From the IMG/VR virus record IMGVR_UViG_3300025168_000083, positions 1-62,786 of that record: a stretch of 62,786 nt of DNA; one strand, 5' to 3'. The first letter of the stretch is position 1. Each line of letters opens with the position of its first letter. The DNA comes from a virus. Its lineage: Duplodnaviria > Caudoviricetes. The notes beneath the pieces were generated by a model, which was not told where the DNA came from, searched no databases, and saw nothing but the letters and a program-made list of their open reading frames with translations. The translations under genes were made by a program, and so were the position numbers. Positions 5,840 through 62,164 of this stretch are shown one piece after another.

Positions 5840-6130
5840 ATGGAACGAGAACATGATCAAGGTTATGGCGGTACTTTTAATGCACACAAGAATTGGAAGA
5901 AGTTAAGAGAAAAGCACCGTTCAGATGAAGCACACCAAGCAAGAGGTGGTAGCAGAAAGTGGAAGCCTGAAGTATACCGTTCAACTGGTGCTGGCAAGGG
6001 CGATCAAGAAAGACAATCTCTTGTGTCAAAAGAAATATATGATTTAAACTTCGACCTTGCCTTTGGTAATATTACAAAGGAAGAGTACGAAATAAAACTA
6101 AAGGAACTTATTCGTGAAGACATGGAATAG
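5840..6130 (+). CDS. Hypothetical protein, 96 aa
   Basis: AAGGAG RBS; GAGKGD motif. Confidence 0.75.
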   Translation: MEREHDQGYGGTFNAHKNWKKLREKHRSDEAHQARGGSRKWKPEVYRSTGAGKGDQERQSLVSKEIYDLNFDLAFGNITKEEYEIKLKELIREDME

Positions 6131-8558
6131 TTTATCTGACCAAGAGCAGGCGGCACGTAGAGAAACACAATACGAATACGAACGTATGATGTTAGACTAT
6201 GGTCGTGAACGTTATTGGAAAGACTATAACAGAGCACCGGACGAGGGTATACCGGAACAGGAGCTAATCGATTCTTCTGTTATGGAACTTGAGTCTGTCT
6301 ATCAAGAGTGGATAGATAATGTGTGTCAGTCTACCAAGTCACCTCAATGGTTGTATCCTTTGCTTGAGCTAGGTGCTCGCAAGATGGCCGACATAACCAT
6401 GCGTGCCGTCATTCGTAGCTGGTTCTCTAGTGGCTTCTGGGGATACAGATGGAATGAGGAGCAACACACCCCACCGCTGGCCCAGTCCGTAGCTACTCAG
6501 ATAGCACAAGATGCTTGTGACATCATGGGATTCCAACGTGCCAAAGAAAACAAACGAGAGGATTGGATGCGTCAGTCTAAGTTCATAAAGAACTGGACTA
6601 CCAAAAGATGCAAAGCATTTGCTCTGAAGATGGGTGAGAATATCAACCTATCTATTAAACAGAAGCACGACTTTGGTCACCACATGCTACGCATAGCTGC
6701 CTGCTCTAACATAATCCTACTCAACCCTAAGACTATTAAAAAGGGTAAGATGTTTAAGAAGTATACGTTTGTAGAAATCCACAACGATGTACTCAAGGAG
6801 TTACATAAACGACACCACTTACTTGAGACATCTTCTTTAGTATACAGGCCTATGCTTGCGCCTCCCGAGAAGCATACCTTGGTTGAGTCTGGTGGATATC
6901 AGACCATTACAATTAGAAAACCTGTGGTACAGGGCTATCGATCTAACTTCTTTGGTGAGTATCCCAAGTCACAGAAGTTCTCTGAGCCCTCCCAGCTGGT
7001 GCTAGATGGCCTCAACAAACAGGGCCAAACCGAATGGGCAATCAATGAGGATGTCCTTGAGGTCATGGAAACCATGTTCGAGAACAACGGTGGCCTAGCA
7101 AACCTGCCCTACTATAGCTTCGAGGAGTTCATGTTTAATGAGCCCTACCCTAAAGATGGGCCAAAAGAAGAGCAAGCAATCTGGTGTCAGAAACGTGAGG
7201 AAACTTGGGGTGAATGGTACAAGCAGGAGCAGGGCCGTGGCCGTATGCTGGTCAGGCTCAAGCTAGCCAAGGATCTCATACCCCACCGCTTCTTCTACCA
7301 TGTGTATACCCTTGACTTCAGGGGTAGATCGTACACTACCTGTGAGCTACTGTCTCCCCAGTCCTCTGATCTTGATCGTGGATTGATCATGTTGAAGAAC
7401 GGACAGAAGCTGACGGCTCGTGGTAGATACTGGCAACAGATAAACCTTGCCAACCTATTCGACCAAGACAAGCTACCATTTGATGAGCGTATTGAGTGGG
7501 TAGAAAATAACTGGTGTATGCTACAAAGAATTGCAAACGATCCCTATAGTAATAAGGAATGGATAGATGACGCAAAGAAAAAGAATAAATCTTTTCAGCG
7601 CCTTGCTGCTGTCTTTGACATATGCAGGGACGATGGCTATTGCTATATCGCTACTAACCTAGATGGTAAGTGTAACGGTAACCAACACCTCAGTTCTATA
7701 ATGGGTGACTCAGTTATTGCTAAGCTTACTGGTGTCACTCCCTCTGATTTCCCTGAGGATCTCTACCAACATGTCGCTGACGTTACTACTCTGTACTGCA
7801 ATGAGCATAAGGAAGATAATGATTGGCACACAGAGTTTCTTTCACACTGGAAAGAAGAGATACCTCGCAAGGTAACTAAGAGATCTACTATGTGTGATGC
7901 TTATGGCCTTACATTCTATGGGATACAGAAGTATCTTAAGATAGAAGGACATTTAGATTGGGTTGAGAGAGAAAGAGCAGGCGGTGCTATAGTTGAGCTA
8001 GCACGGGCAATCCAAGCCAGCCTTAACAGATCTCTTGTAGAACCTAACAAGGCCAAGGCATACCTTAAAGAAGTAACTACTAAAGCAAATGAATTAAACA
8101 AACACTTGAGTTGGACCACACCTAGTGGATTCAAAGTAGTACACTACTACAATCAGGTGCAGACACGTAGATCCCTTGCTAAACTATTCAATAACAGGGA
8201 GCTAACATTCTTTGTTAGAACTTCTGATGTAGACTCAAGGGGTGCGGTGCAAGCCATCTCCCCTAACTACGTACACTCGTTAGATGCAGCACATATGTTT
8301 TTAACTATAAACAAAATGGCCTTGACAGGCATAGAAGATTACTGTATGATACATGACTCCTTCGGGTGTCATCCTAATCAAGTTGATGATATGTTAGTAT
8401 GTATTAAGGAAGAGTTCCTAAAGATACATAAGGAAAATCAACTAGAAAAATTTAAGATAGAGATTGAACATCAGCTGGGTATACAGCTGCCTCCAATCCC
8501 TGCAAGGGGAGAATTAGATTTGTCAGGGGTGTTAGAATCCCAATACTTCTTCGCATAA
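6114..8558 (+). CDS. T7-like single-subunit DNA-directed RNA polymerase (RNAP-1), 814 aa
   Basis: DFRGRSY, motif A LDGKCNGNQH, motif B RKVTKRSTMCDAYG, PNYVHSLDA, motif C IHDSFG, C-terminal YFFA. Confidence 0.97.
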   Translation: MKTWNSLSDQEQAARRETQYEYERMMLDYGRERYWKDYNRAPDEGIPEQELIDSSVMELESVYQEWIDNVCQSTKSPQWLYPLLELGARKMADITMRAVIRSWFSSGFWGYRWNEEQHTPPLAQSVATQIAQDACDIMGFQRAKENKREDWMRQSKFIKNWTTKRCKAFALKMGENINLSIKQKHDFGHHMLRIAACSNIILLNPKTIKKGKMFKKYTFVEIHNDVLKELHKRHHLLETSSLVYRPMLAPPEKHTLVESGGYQTITIRKPVVQGYRSNFFGEYPKSQKFSEPSQLVLDGLNKQGQTEWAINEDVLEVMETMFENNGGLANLPYYSFEEFMFNEPYPKDGPKEEQAIWCQKREETWGEWYKQEQGRGRMLVRLKLAKDLIPHRFFYHVYTLDFRGRSYTTCELLSPQSSDLDRGLIMLKNGQKLTARGRYWQQINLANLFDQDKLPFDERIEWVENNWCMLQRIANDPYSNKEWIDDAKKKNKSFQRLAAVFDICRDDGYCYIATNLDGKCNGNQHLSSIMGDSVIAKLTGVTPSDFPEDLYQHVADVTTLYCNEHKEDNDWHTEFLSHWKEEIPRKVTKRSTMCDAYGLTFYGIQKYLKIEGHLDWVERERAGGAIVELARAIQASLNRSLVEPNKAKAYLKEVTTKANELNKHLSWTTPSGFKVVHYYNQVQTRRSLAKLFNNRELTFFVRTSDVDSRGAVQAISPNYVHSLDAAHMFLTINKMALTGIEDYCMIHDSFGCHPNQVDDMLVCIKEEFLKIHKENQLEKFKIEIEHQLGIQLPPIPARGELDLSGVLESQYFFA
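8322..8350 (+). promoter_or_regulatory. Sigma70-type promoter inside the RNAP-1 coding sequence
   Basis: TTGACA(8322)-17 nt-TATGAT(8345). Confidence 0.55.
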
Positions 8559-8569
8559 AGGAGAAAGAC

Positions 8570-9096: not shown

Positions 9097-9106
9097 GGAG
9101 TTAACA

Positions 9107-9769: not shown

Positions 9770-9957
9770 TGGATGAAACCAACACCCCAGTTGCGGACCC
9801 AAACGCTGTTTGGATTCCGCTCGAAGAAGTTGAGAAGTTTGTAGAGCACATTCGTAATATGCTTGTAATGACTCTCGAAAGCATTGATGGCTCGATGGAA
9901 GCTGTTAAGAATCATGTTAATACTGAAGGAGAAAACAATGATGACAACGAAGATTAA
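9769..9957 (+). CDS. Hypothetical protein, 62 aa
   Basis: TAATG coupling; GGAG RBS. Confidence 0.65.
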   Translation: MDETNTPVADPNAVWIPLEEVEKFVEHIRNMLVMTLESIDGSMEAVKNHVNTEGENNDDNED

Positions 9958-10920: not shown

Positions 10921-10921
10921 T

Positions 10922-10994
<73 letters not shown>

Positions 10995-41092: not shown

Positions 41093-41534
41093 CAGTATGA
41101 GTGGTGTTGTTGGAATGCCTTTGGGTGGTCCTGTGAGCACAGTTAGTGAGGGCGGTATACAAACCGGATCGTTCTCAATCCAAAGTATGAACACAACCGC
41201 AATCATGCAAATGTATAACAACACCGCAAACATGTGGAACAATGTTGTAAACTTTGGCATGGACATGTCTAACCTTTCTTTTAAGTGGTTAAAGTATGAG
41301 CATGACAAGGCTAAAGGATTACAAAAAGCAACAATGACAGCTGAGGCTCACCAAGAAACTCAAGCACAAGCTAGACGAGAACGAGAAAACGCTGAGTTAA
41401 AAAGATCACTACTACAAATGCAGATTAATAATCAAAGAACCGCACCGGGTGGTCCATTAACATCAGGCATTATGGGAGAAGAAGAAAAATTTGAAGGACC
41501 AGATCCACTAGAAGAGGGAGTAACTCCATCATGA
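41085..41534 (+). CDS. Putative internal virion protein (start reassigned to 41085)
   Basis: GGAGGA RBS before ATG 41085. Confidence 0.65.
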   Translation: MSSSMSGVVGMPLGGPVSTVSEGGIQTGSFSIQSMNTTAIMQMYNNTANMWNNVVNFGMDMSNLSFKWLKYEHDKAKGLQKATMTAEAHQETQAQARRERENAELKRSLLQMQINNQRTAPGGPLTSGIMGEEEKFEGPDPLEEGVTPS

Positions 41535-51300: not shown

Positions 51301-54300
51301 ACATTGCTAGAATAAAAAAGAAGTATGATAACAGATATGGAGAAGCACTAAGATACATAGAAGAACTAGAGTCTAAGGGTATAACCATAGAGGATAAGTC
51401 TCCACACTGGGAAAGGCTTCAGGAAATTTTACATGGCGGTGAAGTGGGTTCGTGGGCTCGTATAAGTTTATTCAGGGCTACTAATATTCTTAACGCTTCT
51501 ACATATAAACTTAATATGAAAAGAATGAAAGCTACAGCTGATATGTTTGGCTTTGAGGACTTTGAGCCCTCCGATTGGATGGGACTAGAAGACCACCTTC
51601 TTTACCACTTAAGCCTTCCTACCCAAAGATCTCCTAGATCCTTCCATAAGGGTAAGCACGATCCCCACGGTATTTTTGCTAATAGAGTAGCTATTCAACC
51701 AGAACAACTTAATGAGTTTATGGCTATAGCAGAACAGAATGCAATAGACGATCATGGAGAATTTAACCAAGCAGACTTTGATGAAGCTCTCGCCTCTTTC
51801 TTAACGAACGAAGAGCCAGATGCTTTCGGTATGTTTGATATAGAAGACAATGTATATAAAGGAATGTCAAGAGAAGAAGTAGATGCTGAGTTAGATCGGT
51901 TGATGGATATGGATCAACTTATGTATATGGCTAGTGTAGACAGGCTCCCATCAGAAATATTCCCTGACTTTGTTTCGGATGAGAGTGATGTAGTCGTAAT
52001 GGACACAATGTTAAGAGAACACTACGAGCATAACAAAAGAAGATTTGAAACTCCTTCGGGAGAAAAGGATAGAACTCTTGCAACAGAAATAGCAAGAGAA
52101 GAACGGCTTCTTGATTTAGGAGACTCTGGACTAACGATCTTAAAGTACCGAGCTAAGATTGCTGGGGGTGTACGTAGCCCTAGAGTGGCACGAGTATTAG
52201 GAAAGCCACTCATTCCATATCACAGACGAGAGCTTTCTATGCAAGAAGCTATTGGTACAAGAGATAACCAAGACTTGTATATGTCTACAGTGGAACCTCA
52301 AGGATTACTGAGTATGACTCCTAGATATAGGAGAAGTTCTTTCTTTAGTAGAGGCATTCCTGTATTGCAAAGATCCGCAGTTCAAAGAAAGATTAACGAA
52401 GTGCTTGAGCCAGTCTTAGCTATAGATCCTAAGATACAAGATCCTAAGATGAAGGGTGTTAGTGTATTTGACACCCCTACTGGTAAGGGATTATTAGGAT
52501 GGCATCAACCCTACCAGAGGTCTAGTCTTCCCAAGGCTATGCCCTTAAAGATAGATGAGATGATTGACTTAGGTATGGATGATGAAGCAGGCCGAAAGGC
52601 CGCAAGAATTCTTAATGGAATGCGGCAATGGGCTTCTTATAGAGATGATGTTGGAGATGATTTAGATAACCCAGATGGTCTCCTTTATTGGTATGTGGTT
52701 AGAGAGATTGAAAGATCACGAGCAGAAATGCTAGAAAACTTACCTGACTACTCTCGATTCTCAAAGAATGAACAAGAGAAAAAGGCACACGCTAGAAAAT
52801 ATAGAATGCAGTGGTTAGAAGGATTGCACGCTATTACACATTTCTCAAGAGATATCAAGGGTGCAGAAAGTAAGGGAATGACCTTAGCAGACAAGGCAAG
52901 AACGTTAGCTGTTCAAGCAGCAGACGATTTTGATTCTCCTGAAAGCAAGCAACGGTGGATAGATGTTCTAACAACTACAATCACCGAAGACAACCCTCAC
53001 GGTACTTTCTTATCCGCTCCAACTAAGCTACAAAAATCTCTAGAGTTTATTATTCCTAGAGAAAACGTTGTTCTTATGGATAGAATTAAAAGCGTGCTTG
53101 AAGATCCTACTGCTACGTTATCAACCAATGATTTGCAGATGTTAGCACAAATGATTCAGTCTACTGACTTCCCATATCATCTATTAACTATTATGTACAA
53201 GAACGAGGTATTACCTAATGTTCTTAAAGAGTTTACGGTAACCGACGAAAACGGAGTAACCTCTAAGCCCTATGCTGATTTAGAGTATGATGTCATAGGA
53301 GAAGACGGTTCGCCTACCGGAGAAAAAGCTAAGGTATGGGCTAACCCTAACATGTGGGAAAACTACATACAGGCAGAACACGTTCATTCAATCATTGCAA
53401 ACGCTAAGGTATGGATTGAAGAGAATGGTGCAGATCAAATTATATTTGATACTTTAATTGAAGAACAACTAAGTTCCAATGAAGCACAGGCAAAACAAGG
53501 GATAAAGGATTTTGCTGTATACTTAGAGAACACCAACCCCGATATTGTGGGGGACGCTAGACCAGCACAAATGAGAAGCAGCTTCTTCCCAGAACAAGTT
53601 CTTACGCCAACAGGATTAGTAGGAAAGGGACAGTTAGCACTGTCTCCTGCTAAGGCAATGGAGTTGTTTGGGTTATTAGAATCTTTCTCTTTATTAGAAA
53701 AAATTAAAAGAAGTAACTGGTCTGGACAAGCTATTGGCTTTGTTAAAGATCCAGTAACAGGTAAGATTACAGAATCAAAGCCTACATCAAGAAGAATCAA
53801 AGATGGCCTTGGGCATAATGAAAACGATATACGGAAGGCAGAGGTTCTTAGAAGCAGTGCTCTTGAAAGGGTTGTCGGTCTTGGCGGGAAAGCAGATGTA
53901 TTAAGGGCAACAGATACTACTCGGTCTGTTGAAAGCACAGGTCAGATTGAAGCTATTGATCTTGACTCTTATCGAAGAGCCCAACACAGAGACGATCTTT
54001 CAGCTGCTTGGATGGAGTCTTATATTAGTCCAGTATCTAAACAACTTGGATACATGAAGTCTACAAACATTGATGAAGTATTTGGGCCTAGTCTTAGAGA
54101 AGAATTAGAGTTAATAATTGACAGAGCACGGACTGAAAACACCCTTGCTAAGAAGGGCGAAGGAGGGCTATACTCTAATACTGTTATGTGGTTAGCTATT
54201 ATGTTAGAACTCCCCCCTCATGATGTTGATACGCTAAACCCAAGAGGACACCTGTACGATACCTTTATCGGAGGAAGATTCTCAGAAGAAACAAATGCAA

Positions 54301-57300
54301 AGGCTTTTGCTACTGCTCAAAAATTAATGAGACAGATTAAGCAAATCGGTTCTGTAGATGGATTCTACTACGGACTAGAACGACAAGCTCCACTGATTTC
54401 TACTATTAGAGAGTGGGCATCTAACGATGACTTTGCTGAAGCAACAACAAGAGATATTGATATTGAAAATAAATCAGCAGTATCAAACTTCCTTAACTGG
54501 CTTCAGAGTAATAAGACAACAAAAGAACTGGAGTTCTTAGGTTTTGCAGAAGACGAAAACGGAAATCTTGTATATAAAAAGAAGTCCAAAGATCCTGAGT
54601 TAGACCCTCTTAAAGAGTTAGAGTTTATTATTAACTTTGGTTTAGGGCAAGAACGTTTGATGGTTGAGCAAGACGAGTCTCTTATGTTGTTTGGTGATCA
54701 AGAATCTAAGCTCAATACCACAGGCAAAGACTTAATTAAACTAGTTTCTAAACAAGGTAAGTTTGATGACGCTGTTAGAGATACGCAGGATCCTCATTTA
54801 ATAAGGGTCAATAATGAATTGAACAACATGAAAGACTCAATGACACCAGCAAACTTCCAAAGATTTAGAGCTTTAATTGCTAGGATGTATATGATTAATC
54901 CTCTTAACTTAATGGACTTAAGTTTAGATTATCAGAATACTAGAGGACGTAGTTTTGTTACTAGAGATAAAGAAGGAAACTTTGTTATCCGCATGGGAGG
55001 AATGCTTGCGAAGCCAATGAGTGATCCAAACATTGCTCTTATTTTCGCTCATGAATTAAGTCACGTGGGAAGAATGAGATGGATTGAAAATAACCAAGGA
55101 ACTTGGAGACATTGGGTTGATCTTTATCACTCTAAGGCCGGACGTAGCCTTCTCCGTAAGATTGTAACTGCATGGCATGGCGGGAACTATACAGCTCAAG
55201 CAAAACAAGAATTCGAAAGTTACATGGAAAACCCAGAAGAATTCATTGCTGCTTTAACTTCTTATTATTTAATGAATGACTCTCTCCCTGAAATGAATCT
55301 TGATTACAATGAAGGGAAAATCTCTGGAATAGCAGGGGGCATTGTTGGGAAGATTATGGACTTTGTTAGAAGAATCTTTATGAGAACTTCCTCAGTTCTT
55401 ACTAACTTCCATTACCAAGATCCCCGTCTGTCTCAACATGTGGAAAACCTTGTTCAAAAAACTTTAGGTTGGGATCCTATGGCAAAGAAATCCTTTACTG
55501 AAGTTCAGAACAAGGGAACAGAAAGAGAAATGTTCTTCTGGGATAAAAGATTTGAAGACACAACTCCAGAGCTAGAAAACGATCCAACGCAGTTTAAGCA
55601 GATGGTAATAGAACATAATAAACTTCTTAACTTAGGAGAAGAGGGAAGAACTCCAGAAGAGGCTAATAGATTCTGGGTTTTAGACTCTGCTATAAACGAC
55701 AGTACTGACGCTACTCATGTTATGACTTCTGGTATAACAAGATACGATCATCTTGTCGCGCATCAGCAAAACATGGCAATGTTTGGAGGGATTAATGGTA
55801 CTCTGGATATTGGTAAAATGTTAAACTCTATGGATAATATGGAGGGAGATGCGGTTAGTATTATTCAATATTCCTCAGCTTTAGAGTATTGTATGGAAGC
55901 TTGTAATAGGGAATTTGGAGATCAGTTCCAAGACGGAGTAGGACTCACAGCAGCCAAGGTTACAAAAGCATTATCAAAGGTTTTACCCAGTCTCAGTACT
56001 AGTAAACACAGGGGTGAGGGAGCCTACTCACATATGATGGTAGATCTAACAGTAGGTAAAGCAGGAGCTAACTATACTTGGAATGGGCCACATCCTTTTG
56101 TTATTTTATTGACTCAATTAATTAATGATGATATTGCTACAAGTACAGGACAGTATACAAACGTAAAGGGAACGCCTTCTGTAGTTAGAGTGATTAATGA
56201 TATCGCCTTGTATAAAGATTCAGTAACAAGTTCAATGGCGGCGATAGGTACAACTTTACAGCCATTCTTTACTAGAGCTTTAGGTCAACAAGTGTCTACA
56301 GAAAAACAAAGAGAAATTATGTCTGCTGTATATGAACAGGTTGCTATTAAATCAGACAACCCCAGCCATGAAGTAACACTTCCAGAATTACAAGAATCCG
56401 CAATGAGTGAAGAGGATTTAAAAATAATACATACTGAAATAACGAATACTGCCGATAATATTAGATTGTTTATGGAAGACTATCGCCAAGCAGGAACTGA
56501 ACTTGGGTTGTTTAAATCTACATCATTCAGAACACATATACCGTTTAAATTAAACAGGCTTATACTAGAAAGTGAACCAAGAGATGGTTTTGTTGAGAGC
56601 ATGAGTAAAATGATCCGCGATAAAATTATTAGTGAGTCTGAAGGAAAATTAGATCCTCTTGTTATGTTTGCTGCAAACTTAATTCCTAGATTTAACACTA
56701 CTCAAAACTTAGTTGATGATTTAAAGAAACTAAAAAGAATTAGTCCAGAAATGTATGGCTATATTTTACATAAGGCTGCTGAAGCCCACTATACACAAAA
56801 CGGCCAAATGGATGAATCTTTTGATACTATTCGAGGAATGAGACAGATCGTCTTTACTGATCTAGATAGTTCGGCAGATCCACAAAGACAGGCTAACGCT
56901 GTAGAATTATTTAGGTTAGGTATTATTTCAGCTATGAATGAAATGTCCCAAGGTAGAACTACTGCCGGTTCTTTACAAGAGTTTGGGGTTAACTGGAACA
57001 ACCTTAAGGATATTTATATTACAGCAATTGATCAAAGAATAGACGGAGAGCGTTTCAATACACTCGATAGTCCCGCACTTGATTCTTTAATACCCGATCA
57101 TATTTACTACTCACCTAAACACGGGCAAAGAAAAAGACAGGTGTTTGAAAATATAGATACTCCTGTAATGGTTCATATGCATAATCTAATAAACCGTGCC
57201 TCAGACGGTATGTACTTTCCTTACGATATGTGGTCCTTCCCTTCAGTTGTAGAAGCATTCCAAGACCCAGCTATACGTCCCCACCTTAACTTAGACCCAG

Positions 57301-59354
57301 ACCAAATGATGGGCGATATGATGAAGGGTAAGGGAGATCAGTTATTTGAAACCCAAATGATGGTAGACCACTTCGGAGTCTTTGGTAATGTTAAAGATCT
57401 TATTAATCTATTTGAAATTGTAGGAACCAGAGGTCATGGGTTTAGAAACTTAGACGGAACATCAGTATCTCTAGGTGTTCAAAAGGAAATGATAGATGCT
57501 GCATCTCAGTTAAGAGGAAAACATGCAGTTACAAGAGGTATAAATTATGTAGCAGATTCTCCTTCCGCATTCGAATCTATGCTAACAAACGCAGCACCCG
57601 GACTTACTAGAACAGTCTTTGGCGGCAACCTCGCACTTGCTACGTTTACTGTTGAGACGCTTGCCAGTACAATGATTGAACTGGTTGGAAGGGGCAACTT
57701 TATGGGATCCGTAAGAAGTTTACTGTCTCCTATATTAGGACTTAATCCAGAATTGCAAAAGAGAGTAGGAAGAGATTTAGTACATACAGTAGAAGCACTT
57801 AGTAAGGGCTTCATACCAGATCATGAAATGCCTGCGAATGCGGACACAGAACAGATGCTCGCAAAAATATTTAACTTTACGGGCCGACAGGCAATGAGAC
57901 CTGCACAGTATATGTTAAAGAGCCTAGCTATTCAAAGAGCTATATCAGCTCGAAACTTTGTTGTAGATAATTTAAAACATAACATGACAAAGGATGATAG
58001 CGGAAGACCTATTAGTAGGTTACATCGTTTGGCTCAGTTGATCCATCAAGAACCTTTAGGAAAGGATCCAAAGGCTATACTAGATCGAATGCGTAGAGCA
58101 GGGTTCTCAGTGTTTATGGACGGGGATATTCAATTAATTACATCCTTATTAACAGCCGGGCTCTTAGATATTGAGAGCGGATCCTTTGGTATTTTGGCTA
58201 GTATGGTAGAAGAAAATACTGAAGTTGAAGCCTACTACAGCCCCGGAGAAATGTTAGCCTCTCTTGCTAGAAGCGACATACGGCCCTCCAGTACAGAGGG
58301 TGGTAGGGGAGTCTATCAAGCAAGGAAAGAAGTTATTGCTGGTCTGAGAATGGTCGAGAAGCAATACATTGAACAGGTTCTGGTAGCCCCCAATGCCTTT
58401 GATGTCTTTACTCCTAAGGTATCCTCTACTGGAGAAGCAGAAGGAACGGGAGCATTAGATACCTTGTTTGAAATCTTTAGGCGATATCCTATGTTGTTTG
58501 TGAGTCAGCACGTTTACAGAAAGATGAACCGACAAAGCCCAATGAAATATGCTTTCGGTCTTACTAGTATGTTGATGTTAGATGTTGTATACATGCTGGC
58601 ACTTAGATTGTCAATGGGAGCAGAGCCAGAAGATATCCTCGAAGAGTTTGAGGATAATCCGGTAGGCTTCAGTATTGGCTACGGTGTCCGTCTTCCAATC
58701 CTTGGTCGATACATGGGCTTGATTGGTGAGGCTATTGCTGCCCTGCCTATGCTTGCTCAGGGTAAGTCCATTAGGCAGCCCGGCGGATTCATTCCTCTGG
58801 GAGCGTTGGAAGCAGCAGCCAAGGGAGTCCTTAGAGCGGGAGATTCAGTGTGGAATAACGAGCCACATAAGTTACAGGATGTCCTGAATGCAATGAGGGT
58901 AGTTCCTATTGCAGGAGATAGGTTACTTGCCTTAGGATACTACACTGCCGCAGGAGACGGTATACAGAGGCGTAGTAATAAGAGCAGCGGTACAGGCACA
59001 TCAAGAAACGCTGAGACTGGAGAACTTCAAACAAGGCATCACTATGGGGTTCCAGAACAAGCCTTTGAAATAAACGAGGCAATGAACCACAGAGTATTGT
59101 TAGAACAGTTTGGAGCACAGATGGAATGGCCGGGATACTCAGAGCCAAAGGATGTTCCGTTTGCAGGAATGACTAGGCAGCAGTATCCTGAGGACATGGC
59201 AGAGGCAGCTCCGACCGCCCCCGCCCCTACCCCTGCGCCGCCTTCAGAACCCGCGCCAGCCCCGGCTCCTGCCCCTCAGGCAGAGCCTACGATGGCAGAC
59301 CGTATAAGAGGACAGGAGGGGTCTTCTGGTAAACTCGCAGACGCACTAGGGTAA
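45366..59354 (+). CDS. Giant internal virion protein, putative virion-packaged RNA polymerase with a zincin domain, 4662 aa
   Basis: TDQVASGL (motif A, D1685), EDVY, REFFKVPVMRRLYGG (motif B R-x3-K-x7-YG), possible motif C HD2099, HELSH...EEFIA. Confidence 0.7.
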   Translation: MSERRWSVAPIPLTTSSIFEEKLQRDQMKLVNEQMAEIPFAKNMPAYGTAIDAPMVFQDMDTGEYVKGMLEYGEASRQQLKGDYARGFLATDAGFRQQFSTQVVGGRDLSLYNVDSEKLDLLEIPSHVSEQLLSGMKGPQYNLALWDYRHAHDVPIIDLFASGPEDFLNMEPPEGWSTKAAINEFKERDPKLYALMATTLGGDAGIEEITRDSRNPVEFFYDLNRRQQLLAITQSQQMFEDRAGFISSNYEGLKNFVVNGILDDPDMAASFALSVGLAAFTGGTSLLAGAAFKIGKAAKTAHRFNKVLGSGRAVGRGLAISAKHARTAQVLLPENLGPTLVRTVLFKEKYAKMGGVAKFGVNRLSDSVEGTISGALAETFNQKRKKDLGLIDEMSYAAIASEALTEAALSPLINPIFGGVFKGIGMVASVPGTIMSQAFANTLGKRELGKYLQETTQTALSMFNPQAMLDSMDVYEGKETLITNINSLLGEEESLKDGLELESTLIPILETVRATSGLDSPKFLDALNVAVENIITARSASQSANKEMTGAELGVSIITQLATENAEMATTLGEKGFEHIMAVISNQLTMITNAKKEGLSVEEYFSRVVEDGTYFDLLPEVLKQEVYKKAGGEEAAKKLGDTKLREIAAEVQLDIIKESKKIHTEFKKRVESTTKEVNEVNESVQNISEATGIPIPPRVDPSPEPTVTPRPRSNEGATDTAPAEEQSSDEAQAPVDDLTEQHRKETDLTETQKELINIKEELMKRRRDARNAETVDRKELKEIDKNIKSVDALLTRIETLRKEVTNSINAYLTESGQSKELIELGRTLRKLTEQIDRAMEKLKPMQNEINQNLEDRSTLSAIFTYFGPDSAEKYPDGVFFENLSPELQETLQRIHDSLKSGTAKTYLAEVIAGKKLSVKEIKSRIVKTLQRKTEQLKEKWENDALVDHIRDEEKKLEELRGKYNVENAKYQQENIKKDLIQMTQVISIAEVAKRKKDEIRSLETRRRSIDELMADKDTVSIQEVYVRLPRKSKLRGELKARLKDTDGDGTITVDELNERLDEDFADSRKNIVSTIGTDTRYSPMSRTRQTKRISAMYGNRYAHEISDEEIYDVDFDIDWLVENNTPGTALRDVKISVEEDHKSFKQWLANLSVVGQTSSNVANDGTISTWRLLSNMPDYFWDLGLPIHIIFRKAMVNPTENAGSETNSTGSEENPWDSVSNLSSVRWRYSEIKSILERWEVISKARLTGYMESFGKELAKEMAKDLLSESNPSGLTNLEATAEYLNEAIVAERNFNTEKFNESGYILSIDRATGFPTEFASKDQGYLYEAGVRNAIRTRVGYMMNNAKFRLFIKEKAGIEIFLTKPGETAEEAQARSVKEIDTITDYIINNLSLVLNEVDATHPQFINFTLTGFGDGSISWSPAQMAGYAIVDTFVEKSVPMKSRLTGIQEATEYANTEEMRITGESVMLEMPREGDINFAAPISLADNRLNVENYKFRLRIKEVLKKAKSEVPLTPKEKKVLYNSIQSRRFKDETDPVADEMDMYLVPQIVGGHAQEEFITRDQAKDFMMELFLDMAQIGHAINQDSMTIANGGSLRFRNTKENPMPLAFANLNLGYDNITPLGSQLAETLALEQMHPDLSGMSEAAATMHIKFVSEFKSKWQAANPDKEWSASVMLDPSNHTDQVASGLMIVQLLSKLGSGEAAVELDKIRLMIDDIDFELLNEDGTAQRNSDGTFVSLALEDVYVETGLNILGHIKDKDKDNKYIQGSGKWLTDVFGWLDQNEITNKDNYREKMAEFEASGDTESVRKGKAIREFFKVPVMRRLYGGGLDSFKLEFMGMTANSREIIDELNGAFGIKLTDAETENLGTVLLSASAMNGVHILDAALGFEGKIRNAAMAFLKVGREQQVETEMWRDVVRSSNIPNQDSGNSQGPTELAPVDGESMHIMNRLDRVKRALEGKIRYLAERTPEGATPENIARIKKKYDNRYGEALRYIEELESKGITIEDKSPHWERLQEILHGGEVGSWARISLFRATNILNASTYKLNMKRMKATADMFGFEDFEPSDWMGLEDHLLYHLSLPTQRSPRSFHKGKHDPHGIFANRVAIQPEQLNEFMAIAEQNAIDDHGEFNQADFDEALASFLTNEEPDAFGMFDIEDNVYKGMSREEVDAELDRLMDMDQLMYMASVDRLPSEIFPDFVSDESDVVVMDTMLREHYEHNKRRFETPSGEKDRTLATEIAREERLLDLGDSGLTILKYRAKIAGGVRSPRVARVLGKPLIPYHRRELSMQEAIGTRDNQDLYMSTVEPQGLLSMTPRYRRSSFFSRGIPVLQRSAVQRKINEVLEPVLAIDPKIQDPKMKGVSVFDTPTGKGLLGWHQPYQRSSLPKAMPLKIDEMIDLGMDDEAGRKAARILNGMRQWASYRDDVGDDLDNPDGLLYWYVVREIERSRAEMLENLPDYSRFSKNEQEKKAHARKYRMQWLEGLHAITHFSRDIKGAESKGMTLADKARTLAVQAADDFDSPESKQRWIDVLTTTITEDNPHGTFLSAPTKLQKSLEFIIPRENVVLMDRIKSVLEDPTATLSTNDLQMLAQMIQSTDFPYHLLTIMYKNEVLPNVLKEFTVTDENGVTSKPYADLEYDVIGEDGSPTGEKAKVWANPNMWENYIQAEHVHSIIANAKVWIEENGADQIIFDTLIEEQLSSNEAQAKQGIKDFAVYLENTNPDIVGDARPAQMRSSFFPEQVLTPTGLVGKGQLALSPAKAMELFGLLESFSLLEKIKRSNWSGQAIGFVKDPVTGKITESKPTSRRIKDGLGHNENDIRKAEVLRSSALERVVGLGGKADVLRATDTTRSVESTGQIEAIDLDSYRRAQHRDDLSAAWMESYISPVSKQLGYMKSTNIDEVFGPSLREELELIIDRARTENTLAKKGEGGLYSNTVMWLAIMLELPPHDVDTLNPRGHLYDTFIGGRFSEETNAKAFATAQKLMRQIKQIGSVDGFYYGLERQAPLISTIREWASNDDFAEATTRDIDIENKSAVSNFLNWLQSNKTTKELEFLGFAEDENGNLVYKKKSKDPELDPLKELEFIINFGLGQERLMVEQDESLMLFGDQESKLNTTGKDLIKLVSKQGKFDDAVRDTQDPHLIRVNNELNNMKDSMTPANFQRFRALIARMYMINPLNLMDLSLDYQNTRGRSFVTRDKEGNFVIRMGGMLAKPMSDPNIALIFAHELSHVGRMRWIENNQGTWRHWVDLYHSKAGRSLLRKIVTAWHGGNYTAQAKQEFESYMENPEEFIAALTSYYLMNDSLPEMNLDYNEGKISGIAGGIVGKIMDFVRRIFMRTSSVLTNFHYQDPRLSQHVENLVQKTLGWDPMAKKSFTEVQNKGTEREMFFWDKRFEDTTPELENDPTQFKQMVIEHNKLLNLGEEGRTPEEANRFWVLDSAINDSTDATHVMTSGITRYDHLVAHQQNMAMFGGINGTLDIGKMLNSMDNMEGDAVSIIQYSSALEYCMEACNREFGDQFQDGVGLTAAKVTKALSKVLPSLSTSKHRGEGAYSHMMVDLTVGKAGANYTWNGPHPFVILLTQLINDDIATSTGQYTNVKGTPSVVRVINDIALYKDSVTSSMAAIGTTLQPFFTRALGQQVSTEKQREIMSAVYEQVAIKSDNPSHEVTLPELQESAMSEEDLKIIHTEITNTADNIRLFMEDYRQAGTELGLFKSTSFRTHIPFKLNRLILESEPRDGFVESMSKMIRDKIISESEGKLDPLVMFAANLIPRFNTTQNLVDDLKKLKRISPEMYGYILHKAAEAHYTQNGQMDESFDTIRGMRQIVFTDLDSSADPQRQANAVELFRLGIISAMNEMSQGRTTAGSLQEFGVNWNNLKDIYITAIDQRIDGERFNTLDSPALDSLIPDHIYYSPKHGQRKRQVFENIDTPVMVHMHNLINRASDGMYFPYDMWSFPSVVEAFQDPAIRPHLNLDPDQMMGDMMKGKGDQLFETQMMVDHFGVFGNVKDLINLFEIVGTRGHGFRNLDGTSVSLGVQKEMIDAASQLRGKHAVTRGINYVADSPSAFESMLTNAAPGLTRTVFGGNLALATFTVETLASTMIELVGRGNFMGSVRSLLSPILGLNPELQKRVGRDLVHTVEALSKGFIPDHEMPANADTEQMLAKIFNFTGRQAMRPAQYMLKSLAIQRAISARNFVVDNLKHNMTKDDSGRPISRLHRLAQLIHQEPLGKDPKAILDRMRRAGFSVFMDGDIQLITSLLTAGLLDIESGSFGILASMVEENTEVEAYYSPGEMLASLARSDIRPSSTEGGRGVYQARKEVIAGLRMVEKQYIEQVLVAPNAFDVFTPKVSSTGEAEGTGALDTLFEIFRRYPMLFVSQHVYRKMNRQSPMKYAFGLTSMLMLDVVYMLALRLSMGAEPEDILEEFEDNPVGFSIGYGVRLPILGRYMGLIGEAIAALPMLAQGKSIRQPGGFIPLGALEAAAKGVLRAGDSVWNNEPHKLQDVLNAMRVVPIAGDRLLALGYYTAAGDGIQRRSNKSSGTGTSRNAETGELQTRHHYGVPEQAFEINEAMNHRVLLEQFGAQMEWPGYSEPKDVPFAGMTRQQYPEDMAEAAPTAPAPTPAPPSEPAPAPAPAPQAEPTMADRIRGQEGSSGKLADALG

Positions 59355-59447
59355 ATCGACTAGGGGGTCACGAATTTGTCTGGGGTAGTATATGGATGGG
59401 TGTCCATCCTTGTCCCCCCGTACCCCCCTTGACAAAGGAACTAACAC

Positions 59448-59780
59448 ATGTCACTCAACTCACGAAACACATCGATCCGCAATATCACTCATTATATCGT
59501 TGCATATAATAAGTCTGGAGGCAACCTTAAGGAAGTTCTCCATTGTGGAGTAGATGATAGTAATGATGCAAGACGTAAGGCACACAGGTTCATGGAATTG
59601 GCGAAAGCCGAAGGCATGGCTGAAGTGGCTTATTACTTTGTACTTACTAATGGCGAGGAAGGTAGGAATCATGATGTTCATAGTGTCTGGGTAGTAAACA
59701 AATGGCAACGTGACGAGAGTAAAGAATCATTCTTTACTAACGAATTCGCTAGCCATCCTGTTAACTACGTAGACGCATAG
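59448..59780 (+). CDS. Hypothetical early protein, 110 aa
   Basis: AAGGA RBS; first ORF after the structural block. Confidence 0.7.
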   Translation: MSLNSRNTSIRNITHYIVAYNKSGGNLKEVLHCGVDDSNDARRKAHRFMELAKAEGMAEVAYYFVLTNGEEGRNHDVHSVWVVNKWQRDESKESFFTNEFASHPVNYVDA

Positions 59781-59855
59781 CCGAAAGGAAGTACTGTTGT
59801 AGCAACCAGTACTTCCTCTGTCGTGAATGGTCTCACGGCACTGACGAGGCAGACC
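59780..59855 (+). ncRNA. Type II hammerhead ribozyme with pseudoknot
   Basis: GCC-GAAA-stem III(10 bp)-UC-stem I(8 bp)-CUGACGA-GGC; loop GGUC can pair with 3' GACC. Confidence 0.92.
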
Positions 59856-59873
59856 CTCATAAGGAGCTAAACA

Positions 59874-60206
59874 ATGTTTAGCCATGCCCTTAACTGGGCT
59901 TACCGGGCTGGTCGCACTATCAAGTGGACCAGCATTACCCTCTTCTTGCTCATCGGTTGCATCTTCGGACTCATAGGAGTCTGGATGCTGGTTGGTGATA
60001 TGTCATCCCCATTTGCGTGGATGACCACCATGTCCGGCTTCATGTGCTTCTACATGTTGCTGGTGCTGGCCTCAGAGTACCTAACAGACTACTCTGATGA
60101 CTATGCAGATGAGCCCTTGGTCAAGCTTGGACAAGGTGACCACGAGTGGATTGTTCCTCCTCCGCCAACAGGCGAAGGCTCAGACGATCACCCTGACGTT
60201 TGGTGA
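59874..60206 (+). CDS. Membrane protein with two TM helices, 110 aa
   Basis: AAGGAG RBS; two hydrophobic segments and an acidic C-tail. Confidence 0.75.
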   Translation: MFSHALNWAYRAGRTIKWTSITLFLLIGCIFGLIGVWMLVGDMSSPFAWMTTMSGFMCFYMLLVLASEYLTDYSDDYADEPLVKLGQGDHEWIVPPPPTGEGSDDHPDVW

Positions 60207-60231
60207 TGATTGATGCTTCGATGATTTGATT

Positions 60232-60270
60232 AGTCACCCATCTCTTAACGGAGGTGGGTGGCTTTGTATT
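60232..60270 (+). terminator. Stem-loop terminator candidate
   Basis: AGTCACCCATCTC-TTAACG-GAGGTGGGTGGCT followed by TTGTATT. Confidence 0.6.
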
Positions 60271-60296
60271 GAGAGCCTACCGGTAGGCTCTATAAC
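60269..60296 (+). promoter_or_regulatory. Sigma70-like promoter overlapped by a perfect 20-bp palindrome
   Basis: TTGAGA-16 nt-TATAAC; AGAGCCTACCGGTAGGCTCT at 60272-60291. Confidence 0.55.
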
Positions 60297-60355
60297 TATT
60301 TGTTCCTAGCACGTTGCTAGGATTCGTTTTATGAAATCCTTTAGGAGAATCTTAA

Positions 60356-62164
60356 GTGATTAAGAAAAAGGATAAGCGTATTGAAATCGAGGACGCAGCG
60401 AAGATTGCTGTCTCAAAGTTCTTTAAGGACAAGGGACGGCTTCGTCGCTGGCTCGAAGAAGGTTACGACCTTTGCAAGGTGTTGGACCATACTCGCATGC
60501 CTGTACTCAATCAGGTTTCGGAGATGGTTCCCGCTACGCACTTCGACATTCTCGACTCACATGATGTCAACACAGTGGAACGCACAGTCACCAAGGTGGC
60601 TGCTGTGTACGAGGGACGCATTGAATTGCGTACCGAGTACCTGCACTCCTCTCCACCCAAACTCGAAGGAGATTATGCACCCATGATCTCTCGACAGGAT
60701 GACTGGGAGGTTCCCGCAGATGCTCTGGAGTTCATGCAGAACTCTACCAATGTTCCACTGCGTCTCTCTATGCCAGACTTCGAGCTTGCCTTGAAGTACA
60801 GGGAGACACTGCCGGGTTACGATCCGGTGACAGAACGCAATGAGCAGGAGATCTTCCTGCCAGAGCGTGCCATTGCTGAGTTCGTGAGAGTCGGTGACAC
60901 GGTGTTCTACATCGTTGTCAACAAGGCAGACCGCCGGATTCGTGTCTACGCTTTTGCGCGTGGTACAATGCACCCGGCTAACTGTAAGACATGTCGTAAC
61001 ATGACTCGAACTGCTGAGTACTTCCCCGTCGATGATGCCGAGCTAGGTATCTGGTATGAGGAACTTCAGCAGGGATACGGTCTCGATTACAAGTTGATGG
61101 AACATATCATCCAACCGGAGAACGGTCTCGCGTTCCTTATGGAACATGGGCATAAGCAAGGGTTTCCACAGGTTACGGAAGCTCGGGCTTTCCTTGAAGC
61201 GAGGGATACAGGTATGAGTAATTACCTGTGCTACATCGATGCTTATGCTTCCGGCCCCACGATCATTGATTGTTCGATGGGTATGCCGGGAGCCGCTGAG
61301 CGAGCCGATGCTAGTAGGCCGGATTTCAAGCATCACTATCGTAGGTATGCTGAACATCTGTGGTCTAACCCTAAGTTTAAGGGTGCTGTTGGTGGCGTAC
61401 CTAACGGTATGACACTGGAGCAATACCTGCAACTGCTTCGCAATGAGATCAAGCCCGCTCCTGTCAGTGGTGTCTATGGTGCTGGTGGCTCATCCATGAG
61501 CCTCAGTGTCTTGGGTCACCCTACTGACAACGAAGATGAGACCTCACTTGAGGATGTTCGACTTCAGTTGCCTCAGGCTTTCCAGAACTGGAAGCCTGTG
61601 CAAGCTGAGAAGTGGGTCAGCGAATTCGTTGACACCTTCAAGCAGCCTCTTGCAATGGCTCTGAAGAAGGCATTCCCCGGTGTTGCTCGTCTTCACTCTG
61701 GTCTTCAGTCTCACTGGACCCGGAGTGTGGGTAAGGATAACAGAGGTACACCTCCTACTATCCTATCTCCAGATGGACACTACGTGTATCAATCCTCGAT
61801 CCTCCGCAGGAACAAGGATGTCCACTACGGACTCAAGTACAAGTGTCCCATCACGGATGAGCATACAACAGTGCAGCGTATGCCCCTTGAACTCAATCGT
61901 GGTATTGAGCTGGGAGCCAATGGTACGCACATGTTAGATGCTTTGATTCTTCGGCTCGCTGCCAACAGGAATGCTGAACAAGGTATTCCTACGGTGACGA
62001 TCCATGACTCAGAAGGTGTTCCACGTTTCTTCAGGAGACAGGCTAACAGAAACTATGTCTGGGCGTTCAACTACGTCCTGTCATTGCCCTTCTGGCAGCA
62101 GTTCGGTATCCACTGTGGACCGTTCCAGTCTCTTGATCGCAATGCCGTCCTCCTCGGACGGTGA
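60356..62164 (+). CDS. Second, divergent single-subunit RNA polymerase-like protein (RNAP-2), 602 aa
   Basis: DRRIRVY, YIDAYASG (motif A), RNEIKPAPVSGVYG (motif B), ANGTHMLDA, VTIHDSEG (motif C), in T7 order. Confidence 0.85.
   Translation: MIKKKDKRIEIEDAAKIAVSKFFKDKGRLRRWLEEGYDLCKVLDHTRMPVLNQVSEMVPATHFDILDSHDVNTVERTVTKVAAVYEGRIELRTEYLHSSPPKLEGDYAPMISRQDDWEVPADALEFMQNSTNVPLRLSMPDFELALKYRETLPGYDPVTERNEQEIFLPERAIAEFVRVGDTVFYIVVNKADRRIRVYAFARGTMHPANCKTCRNMTRTAEYFPVDDAELGIWYEELQQGYGLDYKLMEHIIQPENGLAFLMEHGHKQGFPQVTEARAFLEARDTGMSNYLCYIDAYASGPTIIDCSMGMPGAAERADASRPDFKHHYRRYAEHLWSNPKFKGAVGGVPNGMTLEQYLQLLRNEIKPAPVSGVYGAGGSSMSLSVLGHPTDNEDETSLEDVRLQLPQAFQNWKPVQAEKWVSEFVDTFKQPLAMALKKAFPGVARLHSGLQSHWTRSVGKDNRGTPPTILSPDGHYVYQSSILRRNKDVHYGLKYKCPITDEHTTVQRMPLELNRGIELGANGTHMLDALILRLAANRNAEQGIPTVTIHDSEGVPRFFRRQANRNYVWAFNYVLSLPFWQQFGIHCGPFQSLDRNAVLLGR

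What the first reader, a model, noticed from the sequence alone, without database searches (positions are those of the whole stretch)
6114..62164. T7-like phage with apparently three single-subunit RNA polymerases: a possible three-tier transcription cascade
Seen: RNAP catalytic motifs occur in three separate ORFs, 6114-8558 (canonical), 60356-62164 (short, divergent) and 45366-59354 (inside a giant virion-type protein). Known: Autographiviridae normally encode one RNAP, while N4-like phages have a virion RNAP plus a heterodimeric RNAPII but no T7-type late RNAP. Inference: this genome may combine both strategies, with an injected RNAP for the earliest genes, a compact second RNAP, and a T7-type enzyme for late genes, alongside host sigma70 promoters. 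I do not know of a described phage with this combination.
Basis: partly seen in the sequence, partly recalled or inferred. Interest (0 to 1): 0.95.

Follow-up and report, generated by a model that had tools for sequence, protein, structure and literature searches.

The report
Marine phage with three RNA polymerases
This complete genome of an uncultured marine T7-like phage encodes a normal T7-type RNA polymerase, a second compact one, and a giant virion-type protein with a polymerase core like that of phage N4; a 2025 survey glimpsed this combination but did not explain it.

Summary
ORF 6114-8558 is a canonical T7-type RNAP (Pfam RNA_pol 4e-74). ORF 60356-62164 (602 aa) is a real, compact T7-family RNAP. 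Its family profile matches the T7-like family at hhalign E 1.8e-29, and the catalytic residues of the DxxGR motif and motifs A, B and C are conserved across 16 sequences. The 4662-aa ORF belongs to a family of giant proteins. The few invariant residues of their central domain include motif A Asp (D1685) and motif B (R1816, K1820, Y1828). This stretch matches the A-B core of N4-like virion RNAPs (hhalign E 8.6e-6). It is followed by an invariant HExxH...E zincin signature, as in N4 vRNAP. The gene sits third in a 165/1270/4662-aa cassette that mirrors N4 gp52-gp51-gp50. No motif C was found downstream of motif B. The contig is not a chimera: it closes on a 279-nt terminal repeat, and 15 related genomes share the gene order. 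The three-tier cascade is plausible but untested. The clade looks like subgroup AG-10.1 of marine Autographiviridae (Commun Biol 2025). That paper already reported the extra RNAP and a large protein of unclear function. The N4-like virion-RNAP reading is the new part.

The parts
6114..8558 (+). RNAP-1: canonical T7-type single-subunit RNA polymerase, 814 aa
   Evidence: Pfam RNA_pol 4.1e-74 and phrog_414 1.7e-154. 358 homologues at E<=1e-10. DFRGR, LDGKCNG, RKVTKRSTMCDAYG and IHDSFG are visible in the translation.
60356..62164 (+). RNAP-2: compact 602-aa T7-family RNA polymerase. It has no counterpart of the first ~235 aa of RNAP-1.
   Evidence: hhalign E 1.8e-29 against the T7-like family, P0001 residues 77-590 on P0003 residues 236-795. 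Catalytic residues conserved in 16 sequences. E 4.6e-10 to N4 gp16, 1.2e-5 to N4 gp15, 3.7e-9 to the N4-like vRNAP profile.
45366..59354 (+). Giant 4662-aa polyvalent protein, probably a virion/ejection protein
   Evidence: 45 relatives among 1.84 billion representatives. Conserved over its full length in proteins of 3397-5694 aa. An ORF of at least 3580 aa is present in 15 of 15 fetched related genomes.
50133..50975 (+). Polymerase core inside the giant protein (residues 1590-1870): motif A (D1685), DxY (D1745) and motif B (R1816, K1820, Y1828)
55050..55241 (+). HExxH (3229-3233) plus E3292: zincin-like metallopeptidase signature downstream of the polymerase core
   Evidence: H3229, E3230, H3233 and E3292 are invariant in 18 of 18. 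They align to HELVH at 2228 and the EF of N4 gp50, E 0.021. Iyer et al. [quoted passage not shown]
41037..41534 (+). 165-aa ORF, first gene of the putative ejection cassette
   Evidence: Assigned by position and size only. No PHROG hit. Compare N4 gp52, 150 aa.
41531..45343 (+). 1270-aa ORF, second gene of the putative ejection cassette
   Evidence: Assigned by position and size only. No PHROG hit. An ORF of 1252-2488 aa precedes the giant ORF in all 15 relatives. Compare N4 gp51, 644 aa.
59355..60355 (+). Variable spacer between the giant gene and RNAP-2, with two 110-aa ORFs and a hairpin cluster (59718-59738, 59866-59882, 60232-60263, 60272-60291, 60304-60322)
   Evidence: Segments are replaced or skipped in contigs from other metagenomes.
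62170..62252 (+). Three hairpins just after the RNAP-2 stop codon. The last is followed by a run of T.
1..279 (.). Terminal direct repeat, equal to 62508-62786, which closes the genome
   Evidence: 99% identity over 279 nt.

Best explanation
The window is a complete genome of about 62.5 kb from an uncultured marine T7-like (Autographivirales) phage, of the kind published as subgroup AG-10.1. It encodes three proteins of the single-subunit RNA polymerase superfamily. (1) A canonical T7-type RNAP sits ahead of the replication genes. (2) A compact 602-aa paralogue keeps every catalytic residue but lacks most of the N-terminal promoter-binding domain. It lies about 6.5 kb upstream of RNAP-1, in a GC-richer early region, bracketed by hairpins. 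(3) A 4662-aa polyvalent protein carries a polymerase core (motif A, DxY, motif B) related to N4 virion RNAP, followed by a zincin HExxH module as in N4 vRNAP. It is encoded third in a small/large/giant gene cassette that mirrors the N4 and T7 ejection-protein cassettes. Shown: the identities of (1) and (2), the conserved polymerase signature and architecture of (3), the gene order across the clade, and the closure of the genome. Inferred: the giant protein is packaged and ejected with the DNA, its polymerase core transcribes the first genes to enter (possibly RNAP-2, from hairpin-type promoters), and RNAP-2 and then RNAP-1 take over middle and late genes. Host RNAP may also contribute from a sigma-70-like promoter.
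Confidence: 0.55

Rival explanations
1. Two working phage RNAPs only. The giant protein descends from an N4-like vRNAP, but its polymerase core is catalytically dead or repurposed, for example as a DNA-binding or translocating part of the ejection apparatus. Host RNAP transcribes the early genes, including RNAP-2 and RNAP-1, and those two divide the middle and late genes.
For: No motif C Asp downstream of motif B. A near-consensus sigma-70 promoter (TTGACA, 17 nt, TACAAT) at 4414-4442 in the early region. Relatives G008 and G011 do without the polymerase core. Weak fold matches.
Against: The very few invariant residues of a domain of about 1600 aa are exactly the nucleotide-binding and catalytic positions (D1685, R1816, K1820, Y1828), plus two further invariant Asp (D1587 in 25 of 25, D1433 in 24 of 25). 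That pattern of purifying selection is expected of an active enzyme.
Confidence: 0.28
2. The giant protein is not a polymerase. The A/B-like motifs are chance or convergent features of a large alpha-helical internal virion protein.
For: No curated profile hit. Foldseek returns only helical repeat proteins. Motif B alone occurs in 546 of 20000 shuffles.
Against: The combined A...B pattern occurs in only 36 of 20000 shuffles, and those residues are invariant in 25 of 25. Sub-profile E 8.6e-6 and HMM E 2.3e-6 to N4-like vRNAPs, at the same place. T7 RNAP is the first of 48161 chains over the same residues. HExxH lies downstream as in N4. A paper independently reports Pfam RNA_pol in four such large proteins.
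Confidence: 0.15
3. Assembly artefact: the RNAP-2 segment (59355-62786) was joined to a T7-like genome by mis-assembly.
For: The GC content rises to 0.48-0.51 from 58 kb on. Contigs from other metagenomes break or diverge at 59384-59430.
Against: The same GC-rich composition continues into 1-2000. A 279-nt repeat joins the two ends. Giant ORF followed by a 595-705-aa RNAP ORF is seen in 12 of 15 relatives, and the G002 gene runs across its contig ends. Single contigs of runs X6, X8 and X9 bridge 59354 into 59813-60136 or 59863.
Confidence: 0.02

Closest known systems
Phage N4 virion RNA polymerase gp50 (Schitoviridae vRNAP)
   Same: A giant protein with a central single-subunit polymerase core. 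Motif A Asp, DxY and motif B R/K/Y align. A zincin HExxH...EF module lies downstream. It is the third gene of a small/large/giant cassette in the late region.
   Different: 4662 aa against 3500 aa. No PHROG or Pfam vRNAP hit. The ExDGxxxG form of motif A is absent. Motif C and TxxGR are not located in the canonical order. The host genome is T7-like with its own T7-type RNAP, which N4 lacks.
Phage N4 RNAPII (gp15 + gp16 heterodimer)
   Same: A compact T7-family enzyme without the long N-terminal domain, encoded in the early region. hhalign E 4.6e-10 to gp16 and 1.2e-5 to gp15.
   Different: One polypeptide of 602 aa instead of two (269 + 404 aa). It is much closer to the phage's own T7-like RNAP family (E 1.8e-29).
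T7 RNA polymerase and the T7 gp14/gp15/gp16 ejection proteins
   Same: RNAP-1 is a full-length T7-type enzyme placed ahead of the primase-helicase, DNA polymerase, portal, capsid and tail-tube genes. The cassette is analogous to gp14-gp16 (sizes recalled, not from a call).
   Different: The cassette lies after the terminase gene. Its third member is about 3.5 times larger than T7 gp16 (size recalled) and carries a polymerase core.
Marine Autographiviridae subgroup AG-10.1 (PMC12361551, Commun Biol 2025)
   Same: Marine origin and a large genome. A large protein gene within 3274-5566 aa. An additional RNAP of about 650 aa, downstream of the large gene and upstream of the typical RNAP (sections 17-18).
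   Different: The paper reports little or no homology among the large proteins, an unclear function and no SSB gene. Here the large proteins form one family over their full length, with an N4-like polymerase core, and a gp2.5-like SSB hit is present (phrog_112, 9.6e-10). The membership list is in a supplement I could not open.
Polyvalent proteins of phages and conjugative elements (Iyer et al. 2017, PMC5512222)
   Same: A very large multidomain protein encoded with the packaging and late genes. It has a zincin HExxH hub domain, and the cargo domain differs between relatives: polymerase core here, ART-PolyVal in G008.
   Different: No Pfam polyvalent-protein domain was detected in this protein itself.

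Membership tests
T7-type single-subunit RNAP (Pfam PF00940): RNAP-1 | RNA_pol domain above the gathering score | tested here: met
   250.5 bits against a cut-off of 22.
T7-type single-subunit RNAP (Pfam PF00940): RNAP-1 | N-terminal domain RPOL_N (PF14700) | tested here: inconclusive
   30.0 bits against a cut-off of 30.1. Close homologues carry PF14700 in the precomputed list.
T7-type single-subunit RNAP: RNAP-2 (602 aa) | RNA_pol domain above the Pfam gathering score | tested here: not met
   No Pfam hit for the protein or its 3 close relatives, even at E<=10.
T7-type single-subunit RNAP: RNAP-2 (602 aa) | Profile-level homology across palm and fingers, with the DxxGR, A, B and C residues | tested here: met
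   hhalign E 1.8e-29 over 469 columns. D192/R196, D295, K366/Y374 and H550/D551 conserved in 14-16 of 16.
T7-type single-subunit RNAP: RNAP-2 (602 aa) | Full N-terminal promoter-binding domain | tested here: not met
   The alignment starts at P0003 residue 236. Only 76 residues precede it in RNAP-2.
N4 RNAPII | Two subunits (gp15-like and gp16-like) as separate polypeptides | tested here: not met
   A single ORF of 595-705 aa in this genome and 12 relatives.
N4-like virion RNAP (gp50 family): giant protein | Motif A Asp and motif B R-x3-K-x7-Y-G of the polymerase core | tested here: met
   D1685, R1816, K1820 and Y1828 invariant in 25 of 25 and aligned to D559, R666, K670 and Y678 of mini-vRNAP at E 8.6e-6.
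N4-like virion RNAP (gp50 family): giant protein | ExDGxxxG signature used to define N4-vRNAP (PMC10654107) | tested here: not met
   The sequence is HTDQVASG, and the family consensus is D-[RQ]-x-x-S-G. The criterion was read.
N4-like virion RNAP (gp50 family): giant protein | Motif C Asp downstream of motif B, and TxxGR upstream of motif A | tested here: inconclusive
   No invariant Asp after motif B; D2158 is Asp in 20 of 25. Candidates are the IHD at 1585-1587, upstream of motif A, and S-x-R2091-x-Y downstream of motif B.
N4-like virion RNAP (gp50 family): giant protein | Right-hand polymerase fold | tested here: inconclusive
N4-like virion RNAP (gp50 family): giant protein | Zincin HExxH domain fused downstream of the polymerase | tested here: met
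   H3229, E3230, H3233 and E3292 in 18 of 18. Aligned to the N4 gp50 HELVH...EF, E 0.021. This is motif-level evidence only; no Pfam hit.
N4-like virion RNAP (gp50 family): giant protein | Packaged in the virion and ejected into the host | not testable with these tools
   Only gene position supports it.
AG-10.1 marine Autographiviridae (PMC12361551) | Large genome, large protein of 3274-5566 aa, extra ~650-aa RNAP between the large gene and the typical RNAP | tested here: met
   62.5 kb, 4662 aa, 602 aa, and the same gene order.
AG-10.1 marine Autographiviridae (PMC12361551) | Absence of an SSB gene, and listing in the paper's data set | tested here: inconclusive
   ORF 9884-10474 hits the gp2.5-like SSB phrog_112 at 9.6e-10. 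The membership table is in a supplement that is closed.

The most novel reading that the evidence does not exclude
The giant protein is an injected, active RNA polymerase that starts a transcription cascade run by three phage-encoded single-subunit polymerases (vRNAP, then compact RNAP-2, then T7-type RNAP-1). This would fuse the N4 and T7 strategies in a globally distributed marine phage clade. In addition, its polymerase core may have a non-canonical, permuted motif order, with the motif C-like P1549...IHD1587 lying upstream of motif A.
Probability: 0.2. Interest if true: 0.85.

Novelty: new variant of a known kind. Interest (0 to 1): 0.62.

Why it matters
Phage T7 starts with host RNAP and then uses one phage RNAP. 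Phage N4 uses an injected RNAP, then a two-subunit RNAP, then host RNAP. These are the two textbook ways podoviruses take over transcription. A common ocean phage clade that carries the components of both would show that the two strategies are not alternatives. It would give a natural intermediate for how injected polymerases arise from ejection proteins. It would also supply three very divergent single-subunit RNAPs for promoter-orthogonal expression tools. Finally, it assigns a testable function to the large protein that the 2025 survey left unexplained.

Tried and rejected
1. The AF2 model of RNAP-2 from a 4-sequence alignment failed (mean pLDDT 33.9) and was not used.

2. Foldseek against PDB, pdb_via and BFVD gave nothing interpretable for the giant-domain model. 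The BFVD top hit is an uncharacterised protein of an uncultured virus (E 4.9e-4).

3. phmmer against PDB gave nothing relevant for the giant protein, for RNAP-2, or for the HExxH region.

4. tblastn of RNAP-2 and of giant residues 1201-2700 against 50,697 phage records found no match.

5. The search for related loci with RNAP-2 or with the giant C-terminus as single queries found no relatives.

6. Alignment A3 was too gappy for a PDB profile search and was dropped.

7. Whole-domain hhalign of the giant family against the T7-like family (best E 0.097-0.11) and against the RNAP-2 family (E 0.26) was not significant.

8. Permuted-motif idea. The segment upstream of motif A aligns to the post-B to motif C segment of T7-like RNAPs at E 0.0067, of RNAP-2 at 0.12 and of N4-like RNAPs at 0.15, with D1587 on the motif C Asp. 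The window scan shows that the T7-like signal comes mainly from residues 1415-1435, and window 1450-1730 scores only 0.11-0.16. I keep this as unexplained, not as a finding.

9. The BLASTP hit of the giant against RNAP-1 (E 0.001) is out of register with the profile alignments, so I treat it as chance.

10. A search for a repeated phage promoter in 27 intergenic gaps returned mainly ribosome-binding sites. The only other candidate, a 14-mer at 383, 4411 and 25139, looks like hairpin and sigma-70 elements.

11. Hairpins with 3-nt loops lie upstream of RNAP-2 in G000 and G001, and a similar one in G005. These are suggestive of N4-type promoters only; there is no conserved sequence.

12. No RNA holder was listed among the sequencing runs, so expression could not be examined. 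All laid runs were contigs, so molecule ends could not be read.

14. Literature. Searches found no paper describing a T7-like phage with an N4-like virion RNAP. Only PMC12361551 describes the two RNAP genes and the large protein. Its supplementary tables were not seen.

15. Complex prediction was not used. No binding claim is made.
Full report
WHAT THE WINDOW IS. The window is an IMG/VR virus record of 62,786 bp, with CheckV completeness of 93%. Its first 279 nt recur at 62508-62786 with 99% identity. The sequence therefore closes on itself, and the ORF that runs off the 3' end continues at the 5' end. All long ORFs are on the + strand. PHROG hits give a T7-like layout:
- RNAP, 6114-8558
- phosphoesterase
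- gp2.5-like SSB
- primase-helicase
- DNA polymerase
- ribonucleotide reductase
- portal-type connector
- scaffold
- major capsid protein
- tail tube A and B
- an ORF of 1628 aa with no PHROG hit
- large terminase

After the terminase come ORFs of 279, 354, 165, 1270 and 4662 aa with no PHROG hit, then the 602-aa ORF. GC is 0.37-0.47 over most of the genome. It is 0.48-0.51 from 58 kb through the junction to 2 kb. The 602-aa gene therefore lies in a compositionally distinct region about 6.5 kb upstream of the T7-type RNAP on the closed map.

RNAP-1 (6114-8558). This is an unambiguous T7-type enzyme: Pfam RNA_pol 4.1e-74 and phrog_414 1.7e-154. It is distant from cultured phages; the best tblastn identity is 27.8% among 2734 matching records. 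It is common in ocean data. There are 358 proteins at E<=1e-10, the best 120 at 50-92% identity, many on contigs of 62-71 kb and several from Tara viral fractions. In IMG/VR, 222 of 496 pattern-matched stretches encode a relative.

RNAP-2 (60356-62164).
- Alone, it has no Pfam hit, only weak PHROG RNAP hits (1.8e-5 and 3.8e-5), and only three close relatives among 5.8 billion proteins. ESM features score 0.97 to RNA_pol clusters.
- From the 80 IMG/VR loci listed, I took the 16 on contigs of at least 53 kb and fetched 15 of them. G015 was not fetched.
- In 12 of the 15, an ORF of 595-705 aa lies downstream of the largest ORF on the same strand, with gaps of 183-4436 nt. In G002 the gene runs across the contig ends. 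In G012 it is cut by the contig end. G008 ends inside the giant gene.
- In the 16-sequence alignment, the columns conserved in at least 14 of 16 are, in RNAP-2 numbering, D192 and R196 (DxxxR of DxxGR), D295 (motif A), K366 and Y374 (motif B), D528, and H550-D551 (motif C). The motif names and T7 equivalents are recalled knowledge. The correspondence is shown by the profile alignment.
- That alignment is hhalign probability 99.8, E 1.8e-29, 469 columns, RNAP-2 residues 77-590 on RNAP-1 residues 236-795.
- An HMM built from 10 members found 5 of 6 held-out homologues at E<=8e-15. G003 was missed, although it keeps R196, D295, Y374 and D551. The T7-like HMM hits the G011 homologue at 6.4e-79.
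- The family also matches N4 gp16 (4.6e-10), N4 gp15 (1.2e-5) and the N4-like vRNAP profile (3.7e-9).
- RNAP-2 is therefore a compact single-polypeptide T7-family RNAP without most of the N-terminal domain. It is functionally reminiscent of N4 RNAPII but is not a member of that two-subunit family.

THE GIANT PROTEIN (45366-59354).
- Family. No curated profile or PDB sequence matches it. A full HMMER scan of 1.84 billion representatives with residues 1180-2379 found 45 proteins, 21 of them at E<=1e-30, including about 20 giants of 3397-5694 aa. Similarity runs over the whole length. This contrasts with the published remark that these large proteins show little or no homology.
- Invariant residues. 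In 25 non-redundant central domains the residues conserved in all 25 are G1417, P1549, D1587, G1617, D1685, R1816, K1820 and Y1828. D1433 and D1745 are conserved in 24 of 25, and R2091 in 24 of 24.
- Motifs. D1685 sits in h-x-x-D-[RQ]-x-x-S-G, D1745 in D-x-Y, and R1816/K1820/Y1828 in R-x3-K-x-x-V-M-x3-Y-G. These are the forms and order of motif A, the DxY element and motif B of T7 and N4 polymerases. The N4 residues were checked in the N4 sequence and in 8 N4-like sequences.
- Profile matches. A sub-profile of N4-like vRNAPs covering motifs A-B matches giant residues 1590-1870 at E 8.6e-6 (probability 83), with D1685=D559, DxY=DxY and R/K/Y=R666/K670/Y678. It matches the overlapping window at 1.1e-4, and the other 8 of 10 windows score >=0.18.
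- The N4-like HMM hits the giant ORF of relative G010 at E 2.3e-6 on the same stretch.
- The full central domain aligns collinearly with mini-vRNAP residues 91-707 at E 0.0014. As a yardstick, the accepted homologues T7-like RNAP and N4 vRNAP score only 0.014-0.05 in the same set-up.
- Chance control. The A...B pattern, defined on known RNAPs, occurs in 36 of 20000 shuffles of the giant sequence.

ARCHITECTURE AND CONTEXT.
- H3229, E3230, H3233 and E3292 are invariant in 18 of 18.
- Iyer et al. 2017 (passages read) found a zincin HExxH domain at residues 2130-2448 of N4 vRNAP. [quoted passage not shown] N4 gp50 has its only HExxH at residue 2228. It aligns, together with a downstream EF, to the giant family at E 0.021.
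- The gene order 165 aa, 1270 aa, 4662 aa mirrors N4 gp52 (150 aa), gp51 (644 aa) and gp50 (3500 aa). N4 vRNAP is expelled together with two other ejection proteins (abstract of PMC13434306 as listed).
- All 15 relatives have an ORF of 1252-2488 aa directly before the giant ORF.
- The polymerase core is detected in 13 of 15 relatives. G008 instead carries an ART-PolyVal domain (Pfam 2.2e-22), and nothing was recognised in G011.
- The giant gene thus behaves like a polyvalent, cargo-swapping, virion-delivered protein in the sense of Iyer et al.

WHAT IS NOT SETTLED. Motif C was not found where it should be. No Asp downstream of motif B is invariant; D2158 is Asp in 20 of 25. The other invariant Asp, D1587, lies upstream of motif A in an S-x-I-H-D context, 38 residues after the invariant P1549. 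Three profile alignments place this stretch on the PNxxHSxD...IHD motif C stretch of T7-like, RNAP-2 and N4-like enzymes, but without significance. A TxxGR/NPQG-like element lies downstream of motif B at residues 2087-2102. A permuted core is therefore possible but unproven.

CASCADE. Nothing here measures timing.
- Consistent with an early role for RNAP-2: it lies in the GC-rich region upstream of RNAP-1. It is bracketed by hairpins at 60232-60322 upstream and 62170-62252 downstream, the last followed by a T run. Three of the five perfect hairpins with 3-nt loops in the genome lie in 59.7-60.3 kb. A similar 10-bp, 3-nt-loop hairpin precedes the G001 homologue.
- Consistent with host RNAP taking part: a TTGACA-17-TACAAT element at 4414-4442.
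- No repeated phage promoter was found.

CHIMERA TEST. Mis-assembly is excluded by the closing repeat, the continuous GC-rich composition across the junction and the synteny in relatives. In addition, single contigs from three other studies' metagenomes bridge the giant gene's stop into the spacer. Those contigs also show that 59430-60350 is hypervariable between strains, while the 3' end of the giant gene is about 99% conserved.

COMPARISON WITH PRINT. PMC12361551 (sections 17 and 18 and passages read) describes AG-10.1 marine Autographiviridae. These have enlarged genomes, a large protein of 3274-5566 aa (eight with RNase_H, seven with SMC_N, four with RNA_pol; function unclear), and, in 23 members, an extra RNAP of about 650 aa downstream of the large gene. 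The window fits this description, though I could not see the membership table. The paper does not mention vRNAP or N4 in this connection. None of my five literature searches found a T7-like phage described with an N4-like virion RNAP.

VERDICT.
- The two-RNAP part is already known.
- The new parts are the reading of the large protein as an N4-type, zincin-linked, probably injected polymerase, and hence of the clade as a T7/N4 hybrid with three single-subunit polymerases. I put these at roughly 0.8 for a polymerase-derived core, 0.5-0.6 for an active injected enzyme, and 0.2-0.35 for the full three-tier cascade.

Noticed in passing
window 1-279 and 62508-62786: A 279-nt direct terminal repeat at 99% identity closes the contig, although the record is classed as linear. 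It lies inside an ORF (about 62276 to 362), so it may be an assembly overlap rather than the physical ends of the genome.
   Followed up: partly
window 59430-60350: The spacer between the giant gene and RNAP-2 is hypervariable. In contigs from other metagenomes, 59428-59861 is skipped or replaced by unrelated letters, while the flanking giant gene is about 99% identical.
   Followed up: partly
L130:2602-13341 (- strand; record G008): The giant ORF of a related phage (3580 aa, cut by the contig end) carries an ART-PolyVal ADP-ribosyltransferase domain (Pfam 2.2e-22) and no detectable polymerase core. The cargo of this gene appears to be exchanged within the clade.
   Followed up: partly
records G001 and G002 versus the window: RNAP-1 is 90-93% identical to that of G001 and G002. 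The giant central domain is only 30% identical in G001 and 50% in G002. This points to module exchange or very fast evolution of the giant gene and RNAP-2.
   Followed up: partly
window 4414-4442: A near-consensus sigma-70 promoter (TTGACA, 17-nt spacer, TACAAT) lies in the early region upstream of the small ORFs at 4460-5772.
   Followed up: no
window 9884-10474: This ORF hits the gp2.5-like SSB family phrog_112 at 9.6e-10, whereas the published description of AG-10.1 reports that the SSB gene is absent.
   Followed up: no
window 60304-60322; G001 60381-60403: Perfect hairpins with stems of 8-10 bp and 3-nt loops (CGT, TCG) lie 30-50 nt upstream of the RNAP-2 gene in two genomes. They are reminiscent of N4 hairpin promoters but share no sequence.
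   Followed up: partly
window 45366-46650 (giant residues 1-430): The N-terminal part of the giant protein has its own set of invariant residues (G260, D264, P265, D266, E369, G370, Q382, S410, N414; 16 of 16) and no recognised domain. It could be a wall-degrading or channel-forming module.
   Followed up: no
window 31103-35989: A 1628-aa ORF after tail tube B has no PHROG hit. From its position it may be a tail fibre or spike.
   Followed up: no
record G011 (L094-L097): This distant clade member has a 705-aa second RNAP that is clearly T7-like (E 6.4e-79 to the RNAP-1 family HMM). Its largest ORF, 3808 aa, shows no similarity to the polymerase core.
   Followed up: partly
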